This document shows positions 1-40,101 of a stretch of DNA of 44,509 nt, in pieces. This DNA comes from Escherichia phage JSSK01, in sequence record OQ442786; one strand, written 5' to 3'. The position numbers and the translations under genes are program-made. Numbering within the stretch: position 1 is the first letter of the stretch; every line of letters begins with the position of its first letter. Under the pieces are notes generated by a model that was given only the letters and a program-made list of their open reading frames with translations, ran no database searches and was not told where the DNA came from.

Positions 1-128
1 GATGGACGAATACGAAGGCGTTTAGTAAACTTACATCACGCTGCTTGTGCTTGCATACTAAGCCCTGGTAAACCTGAAGCAGCAGCCCAGGCGGTGGAGA
101 CTGCGTAGGGTTCAGGGGCTTATGCCCG

Positions 129-2324: not shown

Positions 2325-2557
2325 TTACCAGCATTCCGAACCTGATTAAAGAATTCGGCACGATGGCCGAGACGTGCCGACAAACCGGCATCAACGAAAT
2401 GACGATTGCGAAGTACAGCAAAGACGTTAACTGCGAGCGCCACGTAATTTATAACAACCGTCTGATGACGCACGTTAAAACAAGCCCGGTGTTATTCACG
2501 CGCCGGGGTATCACTAAAACTGAGCAACGTATCGCACGAGAGGAGAGCGGGGAATGA
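2321..2557 (+). CDS. hypothetical early protein (78 aa)
   Basis: ATGA-coupled track ORF. Confidence 0.5.
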   Translation: MITSIPNLIKEFGTMAETCRQTGINEMTIAKYSKDVNCERHVIYNNRLMTHVKTSPVLFTRRGITKTEQRIAREESGE

Positions 2558-2655
2558 GACTACTAATCATCCCTAACGCCCGGGCCATTCCCGTAGCTAA
2601 CGACCATTACGGCGGCGACGGTAAAAGAGCACCACGCCACGGCCTATACAACTGA
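2554..2655 (+). CDS. hypothetical small protein (33 aa)
   Basis: not in track; ATGA coupling; followed by terminator. Confidence 0.3.
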   Translation: MRLLIIPNARAIPVANDHYGGDGKRAPRHGLYN

Positions 2656-2658
2656 TAC

Positions 2659-2684
2659 AAGCCCTCTACCGAGGGCTTTTCTGT
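2659..2684 (+). terminator. rho-independent terminator closing the early block
   Basis: AGCCCTC/GAGGGCT stem, TACC loop, TTTT. Confidence 0.55.
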
Positions 2685-2776
2685 ACATCCCGCCCAATCC
2701 CCTTATATAATCCATTTAGACGCGTAGGGCGCGTCTGGTGCGCTCTGATGGTCAGACGCATATGCAAGGGGATTCT

Positions 2777-3289
2777 ATGAAGCTGAAACTCAAGCAGCCA
2801 TCACCAGAGGTGGTGCAAGCTGCACATGAAGAAGCTGTTAGCGCAAACCGTCGCCGTAAACGACCGCGCGGTAAACAGAGCCTTTATCAATCATCCCGTA
2901 ATTCCGCCGCGTTGTGGGACCCGGACTATTGTGACGAATTGATTCGTTTCTTCGACCGCACGTCGTGGGAGGCTATGCCGACCGGTGCGCACGGAGACTA
3001 CAAAGCAGTCATTGCGGATAAACCGCCATCACTGGCTCGCTTCGCCTTACACATCGGTGTCACTATCCCGATTATTAAGCTGTGGCTGCGCGAGATTCCC
3101 TCATTTGCAGAAGCCTATGAAACGGCACAGGCGCTGGAAGAGGCGTATTTCACTGAGAATGGGGCCGCCGGTATCTCTGCTACGTTCGCCGCCGCTAAGC
3201 TGGGGCTGAATAAAACAGTTGTCGCCGAAGAAGTACGCGACGAGCCAATCAGTGAAGTAACAATTAAGGTGGTGTCCGGTGAACGTTAA
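2777..3289 (+). CDS. terminase small subunit (putative)
   Basis: 170-aa ORF directly upstream of and overlapping the large terminase; start reassigned to ATG 2777 with AAGGGG SD; basic N-terminus; call by position. Confidence 0.5.
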   Translation: MKLKLKQPSPEVVQAAHEEAVSANRRRKRPRGKQSLYQSSRNSAALWDPDYCDELIRFFDRTSWEAMPTGAHGDYKAVIADKPPSLARFALHIGVTIPIIKLWLREIPSFAEAYETAQALEEAYFTENGAAGISATFAAAKLGLNKTVVAEEVRDEPISEVTIKVVSGER

Positions 3290-7157: not shown

Positions 7158-7618
7158 TGATGGGCTTTTTCAAAGTAACTGATGTACCGTCGCGTCGCGT
7201 AGTCCAGTACGCCCGTGTGCCTGGCTCCGGCGAGAACGTGGTATTTATTGAAGATGAAAGTGTACTGGGTGCGCCCGTAGACGATATGCCGTTTGCAGAT
7301 AAAACCGGTATTGCGCTACCGGCGGCGGGCATGCTTTATGAGATTCAGTACCTGGCGGATGCTGGTGATGTGTATTTCTCCGTACAACCGCAGGACGCTG
7401 AACTGGCAGACGGCAGCGCAAATATCGCTGTCGAAGTTAAGGCGGGCAAAGCACCATATGCGCTGGCCTGGTACAAAGACGGGAAGGAAGTGGTTAACGC
7501 CCCGGAAGAGGCTTTGTCTCTGACGGTTAATTCTGTTGGGGAATACTTCGTTAAAGTTACTGATGCCGATGGTGTAGAGGCTGTCAGCAAAGTGGCGAAG
7601 GTCACTAAGCCAGAATAA
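7157..7618 (+). CDS. Ig-like domain protein (possible capsid surface protein)
   Basis: C-terminal YALAWYKDGKEV...GEYFVKVTDADG resembles an I-set Ig fold signature. Confidence 0.5.
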   Translation: MMGFFKVTDVPSRRVVQYARVPGSGENVVFIEDESVLGAPVDDMPFADKTGIALPAAGMLYEIQYLADAGDVYFSVQPQDAELADGSANIAVEVKAGKAPYALAWYKDGKEVVNAPEEALSLTVNSVGEYFVKVTDADGVEAVSKVAKVTKPE

Positions 7619-7622
7619 ACTT

Positions 7623-7643
7623 AGGCCCCGAAAGGGGCTTTTT
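7623..7643 (+). terminator. rho-independent terminator (GGCCCC-GAAA-GGGGC, T5)
   Basis: read from sequence. Confidence 0.65.
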
Positions 7644-7707
7644 AATGCCTGTGATTATTCCAGTTATTCCACCAAATTGTAAATGTAGGAATAAACTATT
7701 CGAATAG

Positions 7708-7736
7708 TTGACTTTTCACTAAAAATGTGCTAAGCT
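7708..7736 (+). promoter_or_regulatory. promoter TTGACT-17-TGcTAAGCT overlapped by 12-bp palindrome CTATTCGAATAG
   Basis: consensus -35, extended -10 TG, weak -10 hexamer; perfect palindrome at ~7696-7707. Confidence 0.4.
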
Positions 7737-7742
7737 CCACCT

Positions 7743-7943
7743 GAGCTTGTGAAGTATGAACAAGCGACCGCGGCGCGGGCAGGTAACGGAGCGGGACGTA
7801 AGTCCTGAGTGTAGTTACGCTGACGCGTTCGGAAGGGCCATACTCTATTGCTTGTGTAAAAAGTAACTGGTTTACTGAGATTACGCCGTTTCTATGTTTA
7901 AATGATAAGGACTAGCGCCCCGCTTTAAGGCGGGGCTTTACTT
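7743..7943 (+). ncRNA. candidate ~200-nt transcript (sRNA or leader) between promoter and terminator
   Basis: no ORF of 60 aa or more on either strand; only a 36-aa Arg-rich ORF (~7756-7866) with no clear SD. Confidence 0.25.
7915..7943 (+). terminator. terminator/attenuator hairpin (GCCCCGC-TTTAAG-GCGGGGC) upstream of spanin SD
   Basis: 7-bp GC stem followed by TTTACTT. Confidence 0.45.
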
Positions 7944-7960
7944 ATCGAGAAAGGAGAAAC

Positions 7961-8347
7961 ATGAATCTTAAAGCAACTGTCGTAGCGGGGGCATGTTTCA
8001 TCATCCTGGCTTACGCACACGGCATCTACCAGTATCGCAGCGGCTGGAACGGAGGCCGGGCGAATCTCGTTTCGCAGCAACAGCAGAAAGCACAGGCTGA
8101 GTTAGCTAAGAAAACACAACGGCAGCAGCAGGATGAATCGAAGGCCGCAGCCGCCGGCAACGAAGGCAAGACGAAATCAGAGGTGATTACCCGTGAAGTC
8201 GTTAAGTACATTAAAACGCCTGGTCGCAGCGTGTGCACTTTTGACCCTGAGCGCGTGCAGCTCAAGTCCCGCGCCGTCGCAAACGCCAATTCCATCCCCG
8301 GATACGACGATGATGCAGCCGCCGTGCAAACTGGCACTGCCAAGTAA
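7961..8347 (+). CDS. i-spanin (Rz-like inner-membrane spanin subunit)
   Basis: AAGGAG SD; N-terminal TM helix (VVAGACFIILAYAHGIY) then Gln/Ala/Lys-rich segment; contains embedded +1-frame lipoprotein gene. Confidence 0.55.
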   Translation: MNLKATVVAGACFIILAYAHGIYQYRSGWNGGRANLVSQQQQKAQAELAKKTQRQQQDESKAAAAGNEGKTKSEVITREVVKYIKTPGRSVCTFDPERVQLKSRAVANANSIPGYDDDAAAVQTGTAK

Positions 8348-8456
8348 CGACGCGGATGAGGATTTAGCTATTGACGTCCAGAACGCAGAATGTGTACGGC
8401 AACTGAGACTTAAAGTGTTCATGTTGCAGGATTACGTGAGGAATATTCTGGAATAG
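8193..8456 (+). CDS. o-spanin (Rz1-like outer-membrane lipoprotein), embedded/overlapping in +1 frame
   Basis: GTG start after GAGGTGA SD; signal peptide with lipobox LSAC; Pro-rich mature region with a Cys. Confidence 0.6.
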   Translation: MKSLSTLKRLVAACALLTLSACSSSPAPSQTPIPSPDTTMMQPPCKLALPSNDADEDLAIDVQNAECVRQLRLKVFMLQDYVRNILE

Positions 8457-16843: not shown

Positions 16844-16951
16844 GTAATGTGATAGAATAATTTTGCGCCTAGTGTCGCACACGAAAAGTGGGTGGTTCCC
16901 GTCTGGCGCATTTACCGTTAACCTGAAACCTCTTAACCAAAGGATTAAAGA

Positions 16952-29885: not shown

Positions 29886-30173
29886 CTAACTATAATAGCT
29901 CGCTATTAGGGTGTCAACCTGTTTAAACGAACCGACGACAAAAACATTCGCACCACGTTTACGCATCCGCTCGTGCTCGCGTAACTGGTGCGGGTCAGGC
30001 TTCGTGTTTTCGTCTTTCTTAACCTCGACGAACCAGACGATGCCGCCTGGGAGAATTGCCAGCAGGTCGGGAGCACCCGAACGTCCTTCGTAGGAGAGCT
30101 TACGAACGAGGCCCCCCAGGGCCTCGAATCGGTCTTTTGCGTATTTCTGTATTTTGCCCTCAGGAGTACTCAT
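29886..30173 (-). CDS. VRR-NUC domain nuclease
   Basis: GAPDLLAILPGGIVWFVEVKK matches the VRR-NUC signature (PD...EVK). Confidence 0.65.
   Translation of the reverse strand: MSTPEGKIQKYAKDRFEALGGLVRKLSYEGRSGAPDLLAILPGGIVWFVEVKKDENTKPDPHQLREHERMRKRGANVFVVGSFKQVDTLIASYYS
29889..29917 (-). promoter_or_regulatory. replication-module promoter cassette copy 1 (TTGACA-17-TATAGT)
   Basis: plus-strand text AACTATAATAGC...CTATT...GTGTCAAC; three near-identical copies. Confidence 0.55.
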
Positions 30174-33233: not shown

Positions 33234-33287
33234 CTTAATTTCTCGCTTTTCAGTTTACTCCTGGAAGCTGCCAGGCCAGTGATTAGA

Positions 33288-33316
33288 ACTATAATAGCTA
33301 ACTATTCAGGTGTCAA
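33288..33316 (-). promoter_or_regulatory. replication-module promoter cassette copy 2 (TTGACA-17-TATAGT)
   Basis: plus-strand text GAACTATAATAGCTAACTATTCAGGTGTCAACAC. Confidence 0.55.
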
Positions 33317-33320
33317 CACT

Positions 33321-34562
33321 TTATTCTAAATCTTTTTCACTAACCCGATTCCACTCAGGACGTTTGTCGTTTGCCGTTGCGACACATGGCGCTCCTGGCT
33401 TACGGGTAATGAAGTCTTTCAGTTCATCTTCCGGTATGACTTTAACAGCTTCGGTTGGCGTCATGAGCACTTGCTTCATTAGCGCTATGCCATACTTGCC
33501 AGCAACTTTCTCCGCGTCTTTCCACGCACGATTACCTGGGCGTCCTTCTACCAGTTTGTACCCCGGCACTTTCTTACCGGAATGCAGCGCGGCAGCCATA
33601 GCTTTCTCAACCTTGTCGATGTGCTGGCGCAACAACGGCAACTTCTCATACTCAGCTACAAGTTGCTCCGTCGTCAGTTCCAGCGCAAAGTCGTCCTCCA
33701 GTTCTTCCGCCAGTACAGCGTTAACGGTTTTTGTACGCGCGGCGCATTGTTCAGAGAACCGACACCACTGACAACCATCGACAGACGGCTTAAAGTCAGA
33801 TGCTTTCAGGTTCTTCTTGCCGCGGGAATAGGCATCGAGCGCTAACAGTGCTCGTTTTTGTGCAAACTTAGCGAACAGTTCAAGGCCTTCAACCGAGATG
33901 TCCCACTCCGACGCACCGCCAGCGCACGGCTGGAAAATTACCAGACGAACCACGGTGATGTTATAACGCCTCTTGAGTCGGCGATAAACACCGAGAGCGT
34001 AAAGCATAAGCTGCTTGTTTTCTTTCGCTTCGACACGATGCCGTCCTGTTTTCAGGTCGCCGATAATGAGCATATGCTCGTCAGTGTTCGCCAGTTCCTG
34101 AACGGCAACAAGGTCAGCGGTTCCGAACGTCTCAACGCCTTCGTAACCCGGATGCAATACCTCAGTAAGATTTACCCGCATTTCCAGCTTGGCGTAAGTC
34201 GCTACGTCGATAATCGCTTTGCAGTAGTCGGTGTACTTGCGCACCTGCTCAATCATGTCAGCCGTAATCAGTACCGCGCCTTTCATCTGGCTAATTAGCG
34301 CCTTAATCTGGCCTTTACCCTCGTCCAGCACGTAAGCGCCGACTTCACGCTCCAACGGCAACGCAGTGCCGCGTATATAGGCGTTGAGATGGACCTCAGC
34401 TATGGTGTGCATGGCGGTTCCTGATACAGCGGCTTTACCCGACGTGTTAGGGATATCTTTTTCACACGCCAGCGACGCAGCGCATGACAGCCACTTTTTA
34501 GCGCCTGACGGTGACAGTAAGGCGTGTACATCATTATTGCCGCCTCGTTCTTTTAGTTTCAT
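33321..34562 (-). CDS. PD-(D/E)XK exonuclease (DUF2800 / Cas4-RecB-like) with C-terminal Cys cluster
   Basis: start reassigned to ATG 34562 (MKLKE); N-terminal LLSPSGAKKWLSCAASL typical of DUF2800; C-terminal CQWCRFSEQC. Confidence 0.6.
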   Translation of the reverse strand: MKLKERGGNNDVHALLSPSGAKKWLSCAASLACEKDIPNTSGKAAVSGTAMHTIAEVHLNAYIRGTALPLEREVGAYVLDEGKGQIKALISQMKGAVLITADMIEQVRKYTDYCKAIIDVATYAKLEMRVNLTEVLHPGYEGVETFGTADLVAVQELANTDEHMLIIGDLKTGRHRVEAKENKQLMLYALGVYRRLKRRYNITVVRLVIFQPCAGGASEWDISVEGLELFAKFAQKRALLALDAYSRGKKNLKASDFKPSVDGCQWCRFSEQCAARTKTVNAVLAEELEDDFALELTTEQLVAEYEKLPLLRQHIDKVEKAMAAALHSGKKVPGYKLVEGRPGNRAWKDAEKVAGKYGIALMKQVLMTPTEAVKVIPEDELKDFITRKPGAPCVATANDKRPEWNRVSEKDLE

Positions 34563-36379: not shown

Positions 36380-36407
36380 ATCTGCCCCTCTCGTTTGGTA
36401 TGGGCTA

Positions 36408-36436
36408 ACTATAATAGCGAACTATTCACATGTCAA
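36408..36436 (-). promoter_or_regulatory. replication-module promoter cassette copy 3 (TTGACA-17-TATAGT)
   Basis: plus-strand text TAACTATAATAGCGAACTATTCACATGTCAATGG. Confidence 0.55.
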
Positions 36437-36500
36437 TGGGCTTTTCTAAAATAATTAATATGGTACTATTCACATATCAACTGACTAAGGAGTAACTGAC

Positions 36501-39973: not shown

Positions 39974-40038
39974 ACCAAGTAATAAGAATAAAGGCACAAC
40001 CCTCCCCGAAGAATCACAACGGCAACGTAACTATTCTC

Positions 40039-40067
40039 TTGCACACCCCAACATAATAGGTTACTAT
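40039..40067 (+). promoter_or_regulatory. early promoter TTGCAC-17-TACTATTCA with AACGAGACA leader box
   Basis: near-identical to promoter at ~41735. Confidence 0.55.
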
Positions 40068-40101
40068 TCACTTATCGAAACGAGACATAAGGAATTTAGA
40101 G

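What the first reader, a model, noticed from the sequence alone, without database searches (positions are those of the whole stretch)
7961..8456. Embedded Rz/Rz1-type spanin pair placed in the head-morphogenesis region, far from the holin and endolysin
A 128-aa N-terminal TM protein contains, in the +1 frame, an 87-aa lipoprotein gene (GTG start after GAGGTGA SD, lipobox LSAC, Pro-rich mature part) that runs past its stop. This is the hallmark of embedded/overlapped spanins. The pair sits between the head morphogenesis and scaffold genes, about 35 kb from the holin/endolysin cassette at the right end, and is preceded by its own promoter-like and terminator-like elements.
Basis: partly seen in the sequence, partly recalled or inferred. 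Interest (0 to 1): 0.6.

Follow-up and report, generated by a model that had tools for sequence, protein, structure and literature searches.

The report
Known overlapped spanin pair of Kagunavirus
The two overlapping genes are a real but already catalogued phage outer-membrane-disruption (spanin) pair of the "Jersey" family, and their position among the head genes, apart from the holin and endolysin, is the published normal arrangement for this phage group.

Summary
Window 7961-8347 encodes a 128-aa protein with an N-terminal transmembrane segment. Window 8193-8456, in the +1 frame with a GTG start after GAGGTGA, encodes an 87-aa lipoprotein precursor with lipobox LSAC and Cys22. The two genes overlap by 155 nt.

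The window is a complete, circularly permuted Kagunavirus (Guernseyvirinae) genome, about 96.6% identical across this region to many E. coli phages. The pair belongs to the "Jersey" i-/o-spanin families of Kongari et al. 2018, which are of the overlapped class with a 155-bp overlap and o-spanin Cys45 and Cys67. A 2019 genome announcement for phage Schulenberg already states that these spanins are genetically separate from the holin/antiholin and endolysin.

Fifty-four related loci keep the frame. All 53 whose start region is held keep a lipobox cysteine, and 49 of them keep the start site.

- The architecture is overlapped, not embedded.
- The "35 kb" separation follows from where the circular genome was opened. 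The short way round is about 7.9 kb on the same strand.
- The terminator-like hairpin lies between the promoter-like site and the gene, inside a conserved structured leader of about 220 nt.

Two by-products came out of the check. Many database records truncate the o-spanin to 47-48 aa. The leader RNA appears to be undescribed.

The parts
7961..8347 (+). i-spanin gene: 128 aa, N-terminal transmembrane segment at about residues 5-23, periplasmic domain with conserved Cys92
   Evidence: ORF. phrog_2536 'Rz-like spanin' at 3.4e-56. KD maximum 1.72 at residues 5-23. Cys92 is present in 49 of 50 distinct homologues. The single-sequence AF2 model has a helix at 3-62 and low confidence beyond it.
8193..8456 (+). 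o-spanin gene: 87-aa lipoprotein precursor in the +1 frame, overlapping the i-spanin gene by 155 nt and running 109 nt past its stop
   Evidence: ORF. phrog_1267 at 5.3e-20 over residues 9-86. The frame and the start site are conserved. Third-position periodicity appears in the o-only part. Cys45 and Cys67 are present, as in the Jersey family. The AF2 model has a helix at 54-86 with pLDDT 82-93.
8193..8258 (+). Signal peptide and lipobox of the o-spanin (MKSLSTLKRLVAACALLTLSA|C). The Cys22 codon TGC is at 8256-8258 and the +2 residue is Ser.
   Evidence: Pattern match. The lipobox Cys is kept in all 53 related loci whose start region is held. A one-residue register shift (LSAC|SSS against LASC|SS) preserves a valid lipobox.
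8180..8186 (+). Shine-Dalgarno sequence GAGGTGA of the o-spanin, inside the i-spanin coding sequence
   Evidence: Sequence. GAGGT or GGAGG is conserved 6-9 nt before the GTG or ATG start in 49 of 53 loci.
7952..7956 (+). Shine-Dalgarno sequence AGGAG of the i-spanin
   Evidence: Sequence. AAAGGAG or AAAGGGG is conserved in the Kagunavirus and Jerseyvirus loci; phiEap-2 and Klebsiella 37P2 differ.
7708..7736 (+). Promoter-like site: TTGACT, 17 nt, TAAGCT with a TG-extended -10
   Evidence: Sequence. The position is conserved, and the Jersey clade has TAGACT-17-TACGCT. TGnTA[AC]GCT is present in all 40 distinct leaders. It did not reach the threshold of the scan.
7737..7960 (+). Conserved leader between the promoter-like site and the i-spanin start. 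It contains the blocks ACCGCGG, GCGTTCGGAAGGGCC and TATTGCTT.
   Evidence: Alignment. The RNAalifold structure has 9 compensated pairs. 98.3% of cells are paired, against 32-53% when partners are slid. There is no Rfam match.
7917..7945 (+). Terminator-like hairpin GCCCCGC-TTTAAG-GCGGGGC with tail TTTACTTAT, ending 6 nt before the i-spanin SD
   Evidence: Scan. Compensatory stem changes occur in relatives: GCCCTGC/GCAGGGC, GCCCGGC/GCCGGGC and GCCCGAC/GTCGGGC.
8457..8485 (+). Right boundary of the pair: promoter-like TTGCCT-17-TATTCT directly after the o-spanin stop, ahead of the scaffold gene (ATG 8539)
   Evidence: Sequence. TTGCC and the TATTCT hexamer are conserved in the Kagunavirus and Jerseyvirus loci; phiEap-2 has TTGCAA (for context). 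It matches 8 of 12 consensus positions and was not reported by the scan.
43477..43785 (+). Holin 1 of the separate lysis cassette
   Evidence: phrog_2359 holin at 7.8e-30. TTG start behind GGAGGA.
43778..44050 (+). Holin 2, or antiholin
   Evidence: phrog_2508 holin at 6.2e-33 on residues 52-141 of the longer ORF. ATG at 43778 behind GGAGG.
44028..44509 (+). Endolysin (soluble phage lysozyme). The ORF continues across the window junction to window 1-25.
   Evidence: PF00959 at 2.4e-25. Junction translation. The junction is contiguous in other records, which annotate it as endolysin.

Best explanation
This is the two-component spanin of a Kagunavirus, a member of the 'Jersey' i-spanin and o-spanin families, in the overlapped gene arrangement.

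Shown here:
- One gene encodes a small protein with a single N-terminal membrane anchor.
- A second gene in the +1 frame starts at a conserved GTG inside the first, behind its own ribosome-binding site, and encodes a lipoprotein precursor.
- The mature form of that lipoprotein (Cys22 to Glu87) has a Pro/Ser-rich linker, two conserved cysteines and a confidently predicted C-terminal helix.

Inferred from what is established for lambda Rz/Rz1 and other tested spanins:
- The i-spanin sits in the inner membrane with its C-terminal domain in the periplasm.
- The o-spanin is lipidated at Cys22 and sorted to the inner leaflet of the outer membrane. Ser at +2 is not an inner-membrane retention signal.
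- The two C-terminal domains bind across the periplasm, and homodimers are covalently linked through the conserved periplasmic cysteines.
- Once holin-released endolysin has removed the peptidoglycan mesh, the complex fuses or disrupts the outer membrane, which completes lysis.

The genes are probably read from a promoter-like site about 250 nt upstream, through a structured leader and a leaky hairpin. They are also probably read as part of the late structural transcripts, which would keep their timing in step with virion assembly.
For: - Anatomy: the transmembrane segment, SD plus GTG, lipobox LSAC with Cys22 and Ser at +2, and a 155-nt overlap in the +1 frame.
- Family: phrog_2536 at 3.4e-56 and phrog_1267 at 5.3e-20, both named 'Rz-like spanin'. 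Identity to the Jerseyvirus jersey proteins is 64.8% (i) and 66.3% (o) (locus L003), above the 40%/40% family threshold of PMC6139136.
- That paper lists K1G, K1H and K1ind1-3 in the Jersey overlapped family. It gives a 155-bp overlap and constant Cys45 and Cys67, exactly as found here.
- Comparative data: the frame is open in all 54 loci and the lipobox Cys is kept in all 53 with the start region held. The variants LSAC|SSS and LASC|SS both remain valid lipoboxes. The start codon is GTG or ATG at the same site in 49 of 53 loci. Codon-position periodicity is seen in each frame. i-spanin Cys92 is present in 49 of 50.
- No other convincing lipoprotein candidate lies elsewhere in the genome, and none follows the endolysin.
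- The same pair at the same place, after the minor capsid or head morphogenesis gene, occurs in Jerseyvirus, phiEap-2, Klebsiella phage 37P2 and Dhillonvirus KarlBarth.
- Separation from the holin and endolysin is published for phage Schulenberg.
Against: - I found no genetic or biochemical test of any Jersey-family spanin.
- Curated libraries give nothing above threshold. Pfam's best hit is DUF2514 at E = 0.042. NCBIfam P2_Rz1 (LysC) scores 14.3 bits against a cut-off of 27. Similarity to experimentally tested spanins is therefore not demonstrable by sequence.
- Lipoprotein and membrane-segment calls come from pattern and hydropathy rules, not from SignalP, LipoP or TMHMM.
- The single-sequence AF2 model of the i-spanin is poor beyond residue 62, so the second helix and the beta-linker described for the family were not reproduced.
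- Interaction between the i- and o-spanin could not be modelled.
Confidence: 0.88

Rival explanations
1. The lipoprotein is a superinfection-exclusion or receptor-blocking protein, in the manner of T5 Llp or the Cor proteins, and the overlapping membrane protein is unrelated to lysis.
For: It is a small outer-membrane-type lipoprotein encoded away from the lysis cassette. No experiment on this family was found.
Against: - It is always paired, in an overlapping frame, with a type-II-like membrane protein across Kagunavirus, Jerseyvirus, unclassified Guernseyvirinae and Dhillonvirus.
- The best-conserved part is the C-terminal helix with two cysteines, as in other o-spanins.
- No exclusion-protein family appeared in Pfam, NCBIfam or PHROGs. 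Every PHROG hit was a spanin family.
- The genome has no other spanin candidate, so it would otherwise lack one.
Confidence: 0.03
2. Only the short 47-48-aa product from ATG 8310 or 8313 is made, as annotated in most database records. The upstream lipoprotein signal would be an untranslated by-product of the i-spanin frame.
For: RefSeq Golestan, Schulenberg, Bas70, phiWAO78-1 and Jersey UPWr_S1 all annotate a 144-147-nt gene. PHROG 5672 is a 47-residue profile.
Against: - There is no SD before 8310 or 8313 (upstream sequence CCATCCCCGGATACGACG).
- The GTG at 8193 is preceded by GAGGTGA and is replaced by ATG in five relatives.
- In L040 a stop codon lies two codons before that GTG, so no start further upstream is possible there.
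- The signal peptide and lipobox are maintained in every clade even though their sequences differ. In L042 a new signal peptide and lipobox replace the degenerated old one.
- phrog_1267 aligns to residues 9-86.
- Kongari et al. use the 155-bp-overlap model.
- A 47-aa soluble cytoplasmic peptide could not act in the periplasm.
Confidence: 0.04
3. The pair is an envelope-associated module with a role other than lysis, tied to head or virion morphogenesis, which would explain why it sits among the head genes.
For: It lies between the Hoc-like or head morphogenesis genes and the scaffold gene in every clade examined.
Against: - Periplasmic or outer-membrane targeting is incompatible with cytoplasmic head assembly.
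- The architecture and cysteine pattern are those of spanins.
- Spanin genes unlinked to the holin and endolysin are known, for example T4 pseT.3/pseT.2.
- The position is simply 7.9 kb downstream of the lysis cassette on the same strand of a circular map.
Confidence: 0.05

Closest known systems
Jersey i-spanin and o-spanin families (Kongari et al. 2018, BMC Bioinformatics 19:326; members include Jersey, SETP3, K1G, K1H, K1ind1-3 and HK578)
   Same: - Overlapped architecture with a 155-bp overlap.
- o-spanin cysteines at positions 45 and 67.
- 64.8% (i) and 66.3% (o) identity to the Jerseyvirus jersey proteins.
- The same genomic position.

   Different: Nothing of substance. This is another Kagunavirus allele, about 97-99% identical in protein to deposited phages.
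Phage Schulenberg (MK931438) i-spanin/o-spanin, as described in its genome announcement (PMC6763661)
   Same: The same genus and the same gene order. [quoted passage not shown]
   Different: The deposited Schulenberg o-spanin gene model is the truncated 147-nt version. The 87-aa GTG-start model fits the comparative data better.
Phage P2 LysB/LysC (prototype of the overlapped class)
   Same: The o-spanin gene starts inside the i-spanin gene in another frame and extends beyond it (class definition and P2 listing).
   Different: There is no significant sequence similarity. NCBIfam P2_Rz1 scores 14.3 bits against a cut-off of 27. From my own knowledge, P2 lysB/lysC lie next to the holin and endolysin.
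Lambda Rz/Rz1
   Same: The same inferred topology and role: an inner-membrane anchor plus an outer-membrane lipoprotein, both with periplasmic cysteines.
   Different: In lambda, Rz1 is wholly embedded in Rz and is the last gene of the lysis cassette. Here the o-spanin runs 109 nt past the i-spanin stop and the pair is unlinked. The mature o-spanin is longer (66 aa) and has a predicted C-terminal helix, whereas lambda Rz1 lacks helical structure.
T4 PseT.3/PseT.2
   Same: [quoted passage not shown] The o-spanin is larger than lambda's, with a C-terminal helix and two periplasmic cysteines.
   Different: The T4 genes are of the separated, non-overlapping class, and no sequence relationship was detected (one search lists only other PHROG families).

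Membership tests
Two-component spanin (functional class) | i-spanin: small protein with a single N-terminal transmembrane domain and a periplasmic C-terminal domain | tested here: met
   KD 19-residue maximum of 1.72 at residues 5-23. The AF2 helix runs from residue 3. Topology is inferred, not predicted with a dedicated tool.
Two-component spanin (functional class) | Periplasmic domain of the i-spanin is largely alpha-helical or coiled-coil | tested here: inconclusive
   The single-sequence AF2 model gives a helix at 3-62 only. Residues 73-128 have pLDDT below 50.
Two-component spanin (functional class) | o-spanin: lipoprotein signal with a lipobox Cys and no inner-membrane retention residue (Asp) at +2 | tested here: met
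   LSAC with Cys22 and Ser at +2. The lipobox Cys is kept in all 53 loci whose start region is held, and +2 is S, Q, P, G or A.
Two-component spanin (functional class) | Adjacent i and o genes in an embedded, overlapped or separated arrangement | tested here: met
   155-nt overlap in the +1 frame.
Two-component spanin (functional class) | Periplasmic cysteines available for intermolecular disulfides | tested here: met
   i-spanin Cys92 in 49 of 50 homologues. o-spanin Cys45 and Cys67.
Two-component spanin (functional class) | Required for outer-membrane disruption; complements lambda Rz/Rz1 mutants | not testable with these tools
   This needs genetics. No published test of this family was found.
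Two-component spanin (functional class) | C-terminal i-o interaction spanning the periplasm | not testable with these tools
   Only monomer prediction is available.
Jersey i-/o-spanin families (Kongari 2018) | At least 40% identity over at least 40% of the length to family members | tested here: met
   64.8% (i) and 66.3% (o) identity to Jerseyvirus jersey (L003), matched over most of the length. Threshold.
Jersey i-/o-spanin families (Kongari 2018) | Overlapped architecture with a 155-bp overlap; o-spanin Cys45 and Cys67 | tested here: met
   8193-8347 is 155 nt. Cys are at positions 45 and 67, matching.
Lambda-type embedded Rz/Rz1 | o-spanin gene entirely contained within the i-spanin gene | tested here: not met
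   The o-spanin stop at 8456 lies 109 nt beyond the i-spanin stop at 8347.
P2 LysC family (NCBIfam NF038368) | Score at or above the curated cut-off of 27 bits | tested here: not met
   14.3 bits, E = 0.036.
PHROG 2536 and PHROG 1267 ('Rz-like spanin') | Significant full-length profile match | tested here: met
   3.4e-56 over residues 1-128 and 5.3e-20 over residues 9-86.

The most novel reading that the evidence does not exclude
The spanin pair itself is ordinary. What sits directly in front of it may not be. A leader of about 220 nt is conserved across Kagunavirus and Jerseyvirus. It starts at a promoter-like site and ends in a hairpin with compensatory changes just before the i-spanin ribosome-binding site. 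Its 5' end can pair with the stretch between the hairpin and the SD. The leader could be an undescribed regulatory RNA. One possibility is a small RNA ended at the hairpin. Another is an attenuator or antitermination target that gates read-through into the spanin, scaffold and capsid genes, in the way lambda pR'-6S-tR' gates its late genes.
Probability: 0.25. Interest if true: 0.45.

Novelty: already known. Interest (0 to 1): 0.1.

Why it matters
For the spanins, little. The pair, its family, its overlapped architecture and its separation from the holin and endolysin are all in print and in many annotations.

There is a practical point. Most deposited records of this phage group, including a RefSeq record and a curated one, call the o-spanin as a 47-48-aa fragment without its signal peptide. 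PHROG 5672 has inherited that truncation. The 87-aa GTG-start model should replace it, because o-spanin detection depends on the correct start codon.

The conserved structured leader and the paired GAATA-N3-TATTC modules flanking the spanins are possible handles on late transcription in Guernseyvirinae. I found no account of that transcription in the searches I ran.

Tried and rejected
- **Rfam.** Scans of the whole window at gathering thresholds and of 7600-8560 at E <= 1 found nothing. ARAGORN found no tRNA or tmRNA.
- **Pfam and NCBIfam.** Neither gave a hit above threshold for either spanin, so membership rests on PHROGs and on the published family.
- **TTATTCC motif.** It is not enriched genome-wide (9 found, 5.07 expected). 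Only the local cluster and the composite GAATA-N3-TATTC (2 found, 0.12 expected) stand out.
- **Structure prediction.** Single-sequence AF2 of the i-spanin was too poor beyond residue 62 to test the helix-beta-helix layout. I ran no fold search because the models are of low confidence.
- **36-aa ORF at 7756-7866.** It is annotated as a hypothetical protein in relatives. I rejected it as a gene because its ATG and 5' part are deleted in the Jersey clade, while the surrounding RNA blocks and pairings persist.
- **Lipobox-like N-terminal extension of holin 2.** It starts at GTG 43670 and reads MKSLGWASLLLFSGC. It has no SD, so I judged it to be chance and did not follow it in relatives.
- **Kagunavirus transcriptome paper (PMC12645636).** It does not mention spanins.
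- **Large protein-database searches.** I did not run them, because the answer did not depend on them.
Full report
**What is at the coordinates**

The window holds an ATG ORF at 7961-8347 (128 aa) and a GTG ORF at 8193-8456 (87 aa). The second starts 232 nt after the first, so it is in the +1 frame. It overlaps the first by 155 nt and runs 109 nt beyond its stop. GAGGTGA lies at 8180-8186, six bases before the GTG.

The 128-aa protein begins MNLKATVVAGACFIILAYAHGIY. Its best 19-residue Kyte-Doolittle window (residues 5-23) scores 1.72, which is in the transmembrane range.

The 87-aa protein begins MKSLSTLKRLVAACALLTLSA|CSSSP. This matches a PROSITE-style lipoprotein rule that I coded myself, with the lipidated Cys at position 22 and Ser at +2. 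The mature part is 12% proline, carries cysteines at positions 45 and 67, and ends in a helix at residues 54-86. A single-sequence AlphaFold model predicts that helix with pLDDT 82-93.

**Is it more than chance?**

I collected 54 related loci from GenBank phages and IMG/VR.

- All 54 keep the +1 frame open. All 53 whose start region is held keep a cysteine in a lipobox-like context after a basic and then hydrophobic N-terminus. L054 is cut at its contig end.
- The lipobox variants are LSAC, LASC, LNGC, LSGC, LTGC and ITGC.
- Within Kagunavirus two variants coexist, ...LLTLSAC|SSSP and ...LSTMLASC|SSP. The cysteine moves by one residue and both remain valid lipoboxes.
- In L042 the ancestral signal region has decayed and now contains a stop. 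A new signal peptide and lipobox (MNKLFLSAVIIGITGC) lies further downstream. Kongari et al. describe the same transition for FSL_SP-031.
- At the codon homologous to 8193, 44 loci have GTG and 5 have ATG, each behind GAGGT or GGAGG. The four exceptions use a nearby ATG.
- In L040 a stop codon lies two codons before that GTG, so no start further upstream is available there.
- Across 43 distinct ungapped sequences, per-site entropy in the o-only segment is 0.585 at o-frame third positions, against 0.19 and 0.08 at the other two. In the i-only segment it peaks at i-frame third positions, 0.603 against 0.27 and 0.22.

Both frames are therefore under coding selection. The 87-aa model is the right one.

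**Where the window comes from**

The 861-nt region is 96.6% identical to many E. coli phages of the genus Kagunavirus, subfamily Guernseyvirinae. The last 300 and first 300 bases of the window are contiguous in other records, at 100% coverage and 99.5% identity, and those records annotate the stretch as endolysin. The window is thus a whole genome opened inside the endolysin gene.

**The lysis cassette and the real distance**

- Holin 1 lies at 43477-43785 (phrog_2359) and holin 2 at 43778-44050 (phrog_2508).
- The endolysin starts at GTG 44028, runs off the right end and finishes at window 1-25. It matches PF00959 at 2.4e-25 and has no N-terminal membrane segment.
- The spanins are 35 kb away in window coordinates. 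On the circular map they are only about 7.9 kb downstream, on the same strand. Between them lie a block of small genes, the terminase, the portal, the head morphogenesis gene and a Hoc-like gene.
- In the circular record of phage Bas70 the same arc is 7.5 kb.

The pair is truly unlinked from the holin and endolysin. "Far" is mostly a matter of where the circle was cut.

**What it is**

Both proteins match PHROG families named 'Rz-like spanin'. The i-spanin hits phrog_2536 at 3.4e-56 over its full length, and the o-spanin hits phrog_1267 at 5.3e-20 over residues 9-86. Pfam and NCBIfam give nothing above threshold. DUF2514 comes in at E = 0.042, and P2_Rz1/LysC scores 14.3 bits against a cut-off of 27.

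The spanin census of Kongari et al. 2018 (PMC6139136) defines a 'Jersey' i-spanin family and a matching o-spanin family. Each has 27 members, including K1G, K1H, K1ind1-3, SETP3 and HK578, and both are placed under the overlapped architecture. The paper states that the Jersey spanins overlap by 155 bp and that Cys45 and Cys67 of the o-spanin are constant. The window matches on all three points.

Its proteins are 64.8% (i) and 66.3% (o) identical to those of Jerseyvirus jersey. That is above the paper's family threshold of 40% identity over 40% of the length. The i-spanin's single periplasmic cysteine, Cys92, is kept in 49 of 50 distinct homologues. This fits the paper's generalisation about intermolecular disulfides.

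**Is the placement new?**

No.

[quoted passage not shown] The deposited record shows the same gene order.
- The same position, after the head morphogenesis or minor capsid gene, is found in Jerseyvirus, phiEap-2, Klebsiella phage 37P2 and the Dhillonvirus KarlBarth.
- Unlinked spanins are also known from T4.

**Mechanism**

*Shown here:* the two gene products, their targeting signals, the conserved cysteines, the conserved C-terminal helix of the o-spanin, and a separate start signal for the o-spanin inside the i-spanin gene.

*Inferred from tested spanins (lambda Rz/Rz1, T4 PseT.3/PseT.2, as summarised):*
- The i-spanin is anchored in the inner membrane.
- The lipidated o-spanin sits in the outer membrane.
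- The two form a disulfide-stabilised complex spanning the periplasm.
- After the endolysin degrades the murein, the complex destroys the outer membrane by fusing it with the inner membrane.

I found no experiment on a Jersey-family member. That is the main reason confidence is 0.88 and not higher.

**Rivals**

- *An exclusion lipoprotein.* This fits poorly. The lipoprotein is invariably paired, in an overlapping frame, with a membrane protein across several genera. The cysteine and helix pattern is that of spanins. The genome has no other spanin candidate.
- *Only the short 47-48-aa product is made.* Most records annotate it this way. The start-site and lipobox conservation argue against it.
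- *A role in head assembly.* This conflicts with export of both products to the cell envelope.

1. The arrangement is overlapped (P2 type), not embedded (lambda type).
2. The 35 kb depends on where the circular genome was opened.
3. The promoter-like TTGACT-17-TAAGCT (7708-7736, TG-extended -10) did not reach the threshold of the consensus scan, although it is positionally conserved.
4. The terminator-like hairpin (7917-7936, tail TTTACTTAT) is real. It lies between that promoter-like site and the i-spanin ribosome-binding site, so it is a leader element and not the pair's own 3' terminator.
5. There is no terminator after the o-spanin. A conserved TTGCCT-17-TATTCT follows its stop codon directly, then a hairpin and the scaffold gene.

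**By-product 1: annotation**

RefSeq Golestan, the curated Schulenberg record, Bas70, phiWAO78-1 and Jersey UPWr_S1 all annotate the o-spanin as a 144-147-nt gene. That model starts at an internal ATG and lacks the signal peptide and lipobox. PHROG 5672 is a 47-residue profile built from such calls.

**By-product 2: the leader**

The 342-nt space between the Hoc-like gene and the i-spanin contains, in order:
- a terminator at 7624-7643;
- an invariant block TATTCCAGTTATTCC, which also reads as a minus-strand promoter TTTACA-18-AATAAT;
- the plus-strand promoter-like site;
- a leader of 197-225 nt in 39 of the 40 distinct sequences, with blocks conserved between Kagunavirus and Jerseyvirus. One Jersey strain, L003, has a 151-nt leader with an internal deletion.

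RNAalifold on 24 sequences gives 37 pairs, 9 of them with compensatory changes. 98.3% of cells are paired, against 32-53% when the 3' partners are slid by one to three columns. No shuffle out of 500 reaches the observed covariation score. Two caveats apply. The structure was derived from this same alignment, and most of the changes separate just two clades.

The terminal hairpin changes in a compensated way in three lineages. Rfam has no match. The 36-aa ORF annotated inside the leader in some records is not conserved.

The composite motif GAATA-N3-TATTC occurs only twice in the genome, once on each side of the spanin pair and each time just before a TTGAC (0.12 expected). This hints at a shared regulator. 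Any resemblance to lambda's pR'-6S RNA-tR' arrangement is my own analogy and was not tested.

**Verdict**

Interest is low for the finding itself. The leader RNA is the only part worth a further look.

Noticed in passing
window 7737-7960: A leader of about 220 nt sits between a promoter-like site and the i-spanin start. It is conserved across Kagunavirus and Jerseyvirus and has a covarying secondary structure: 9 compensated pairs, and 98.3% of cells paired against 32-53% in slid controls. Its 5' end can pair with the stretch between the terminal hairpin and the SD. There is no Rfam match. It may be a small RNA or an attenuator.
   Followed up: partly
window 7689-7701 and 8472-8484: The palindrome-like motif GAATA-N3-TATTC occurs only twice in the 44.5-kb genome (0.12 expected). 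One copy lies on each side of the spanin pair, and each is followed by TTGAC. The flanking sequences (TTGTA..TGT.GGAATAA) are also similar, as if a promoter or operator module had been duplicated.
   Followed up: partly
window 7654-7683, minus strand: The block ATTATTCCAGTTATTCC...TTGTAAA is nearly invariant. On the minus strand it reads as a 10-of-12 sigma-70 promoter (TTTACA-18-AATAAT with TG). In relatives it faces small minus-strand genes that are inserted at this spot: Bas70_0006, WAO781_gp07 and a sliding-clamp gene in Schulenberg. The window lacks any such insert, so this intergenic space is an insertion hotspot, ranging from 253 to 1117 nt in the Kagunavirus and Jerseyvirus loci.
   Followed up: partly
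window 8310-8456, and loci L001, L002, L003, L056, L057: Most deposited records, including RefSeq Golestan and the curated Schulenberg record, annotate the o-spanin as a 47-48-aa fragment from an internal ATG, without a signal peptide or lipobox. PHROG 5672 is a 47-residue profile of this truncated form.
   Followed up: yes
window 7756-7866: A 36-aa ORF is annotated as a hypothetical protein in relatives. Its start and 5' part are deleted in the Jersey clade while the surrounding RNA blocks persist, so it is probably not a gene.
   Followed up: partly
window 43670-44050: In the frame of holin 2, a GTG at 43670 would add an N-terminal extension MKSLGWASLLLFSGC that matches the lipoprotein pattern. 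It overlaps the 3' end of holin 1. No SD precedes it, so it is probably chance.
   Followed up: no
window 29888-29931, 33287-33330, 36407-36450; also 16808-16844 and 40038-40074: Two sets of repeated intergenic elements. Read on the minus strand, the first set gives TTGACA-17-TATAGT-type promoters with GAATAG in the spacer. The second set is an inverted pair, GAATAGTACCCTATTAT. In some relatives (L012, L024-L026) a copy of the second type replaces the terminator upstream of the spanin leader.
   Followed up: no
locus L042 (IMG/VR 3300045988_013393), 2501-3089: A Kagunavirus-like contig in which the i-spanin is shortened to 118 aa and the old o-spanin signal region has decayed to include a stop. 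A new signal peptide and lipobox (MNKLFLSAVIIGITGC) starts downstream. This looks like a natural intermediate between the overlapped and separated architectures, like the FSL_SP-031 case in Kongari et al. 2018.
   Followed up: partly
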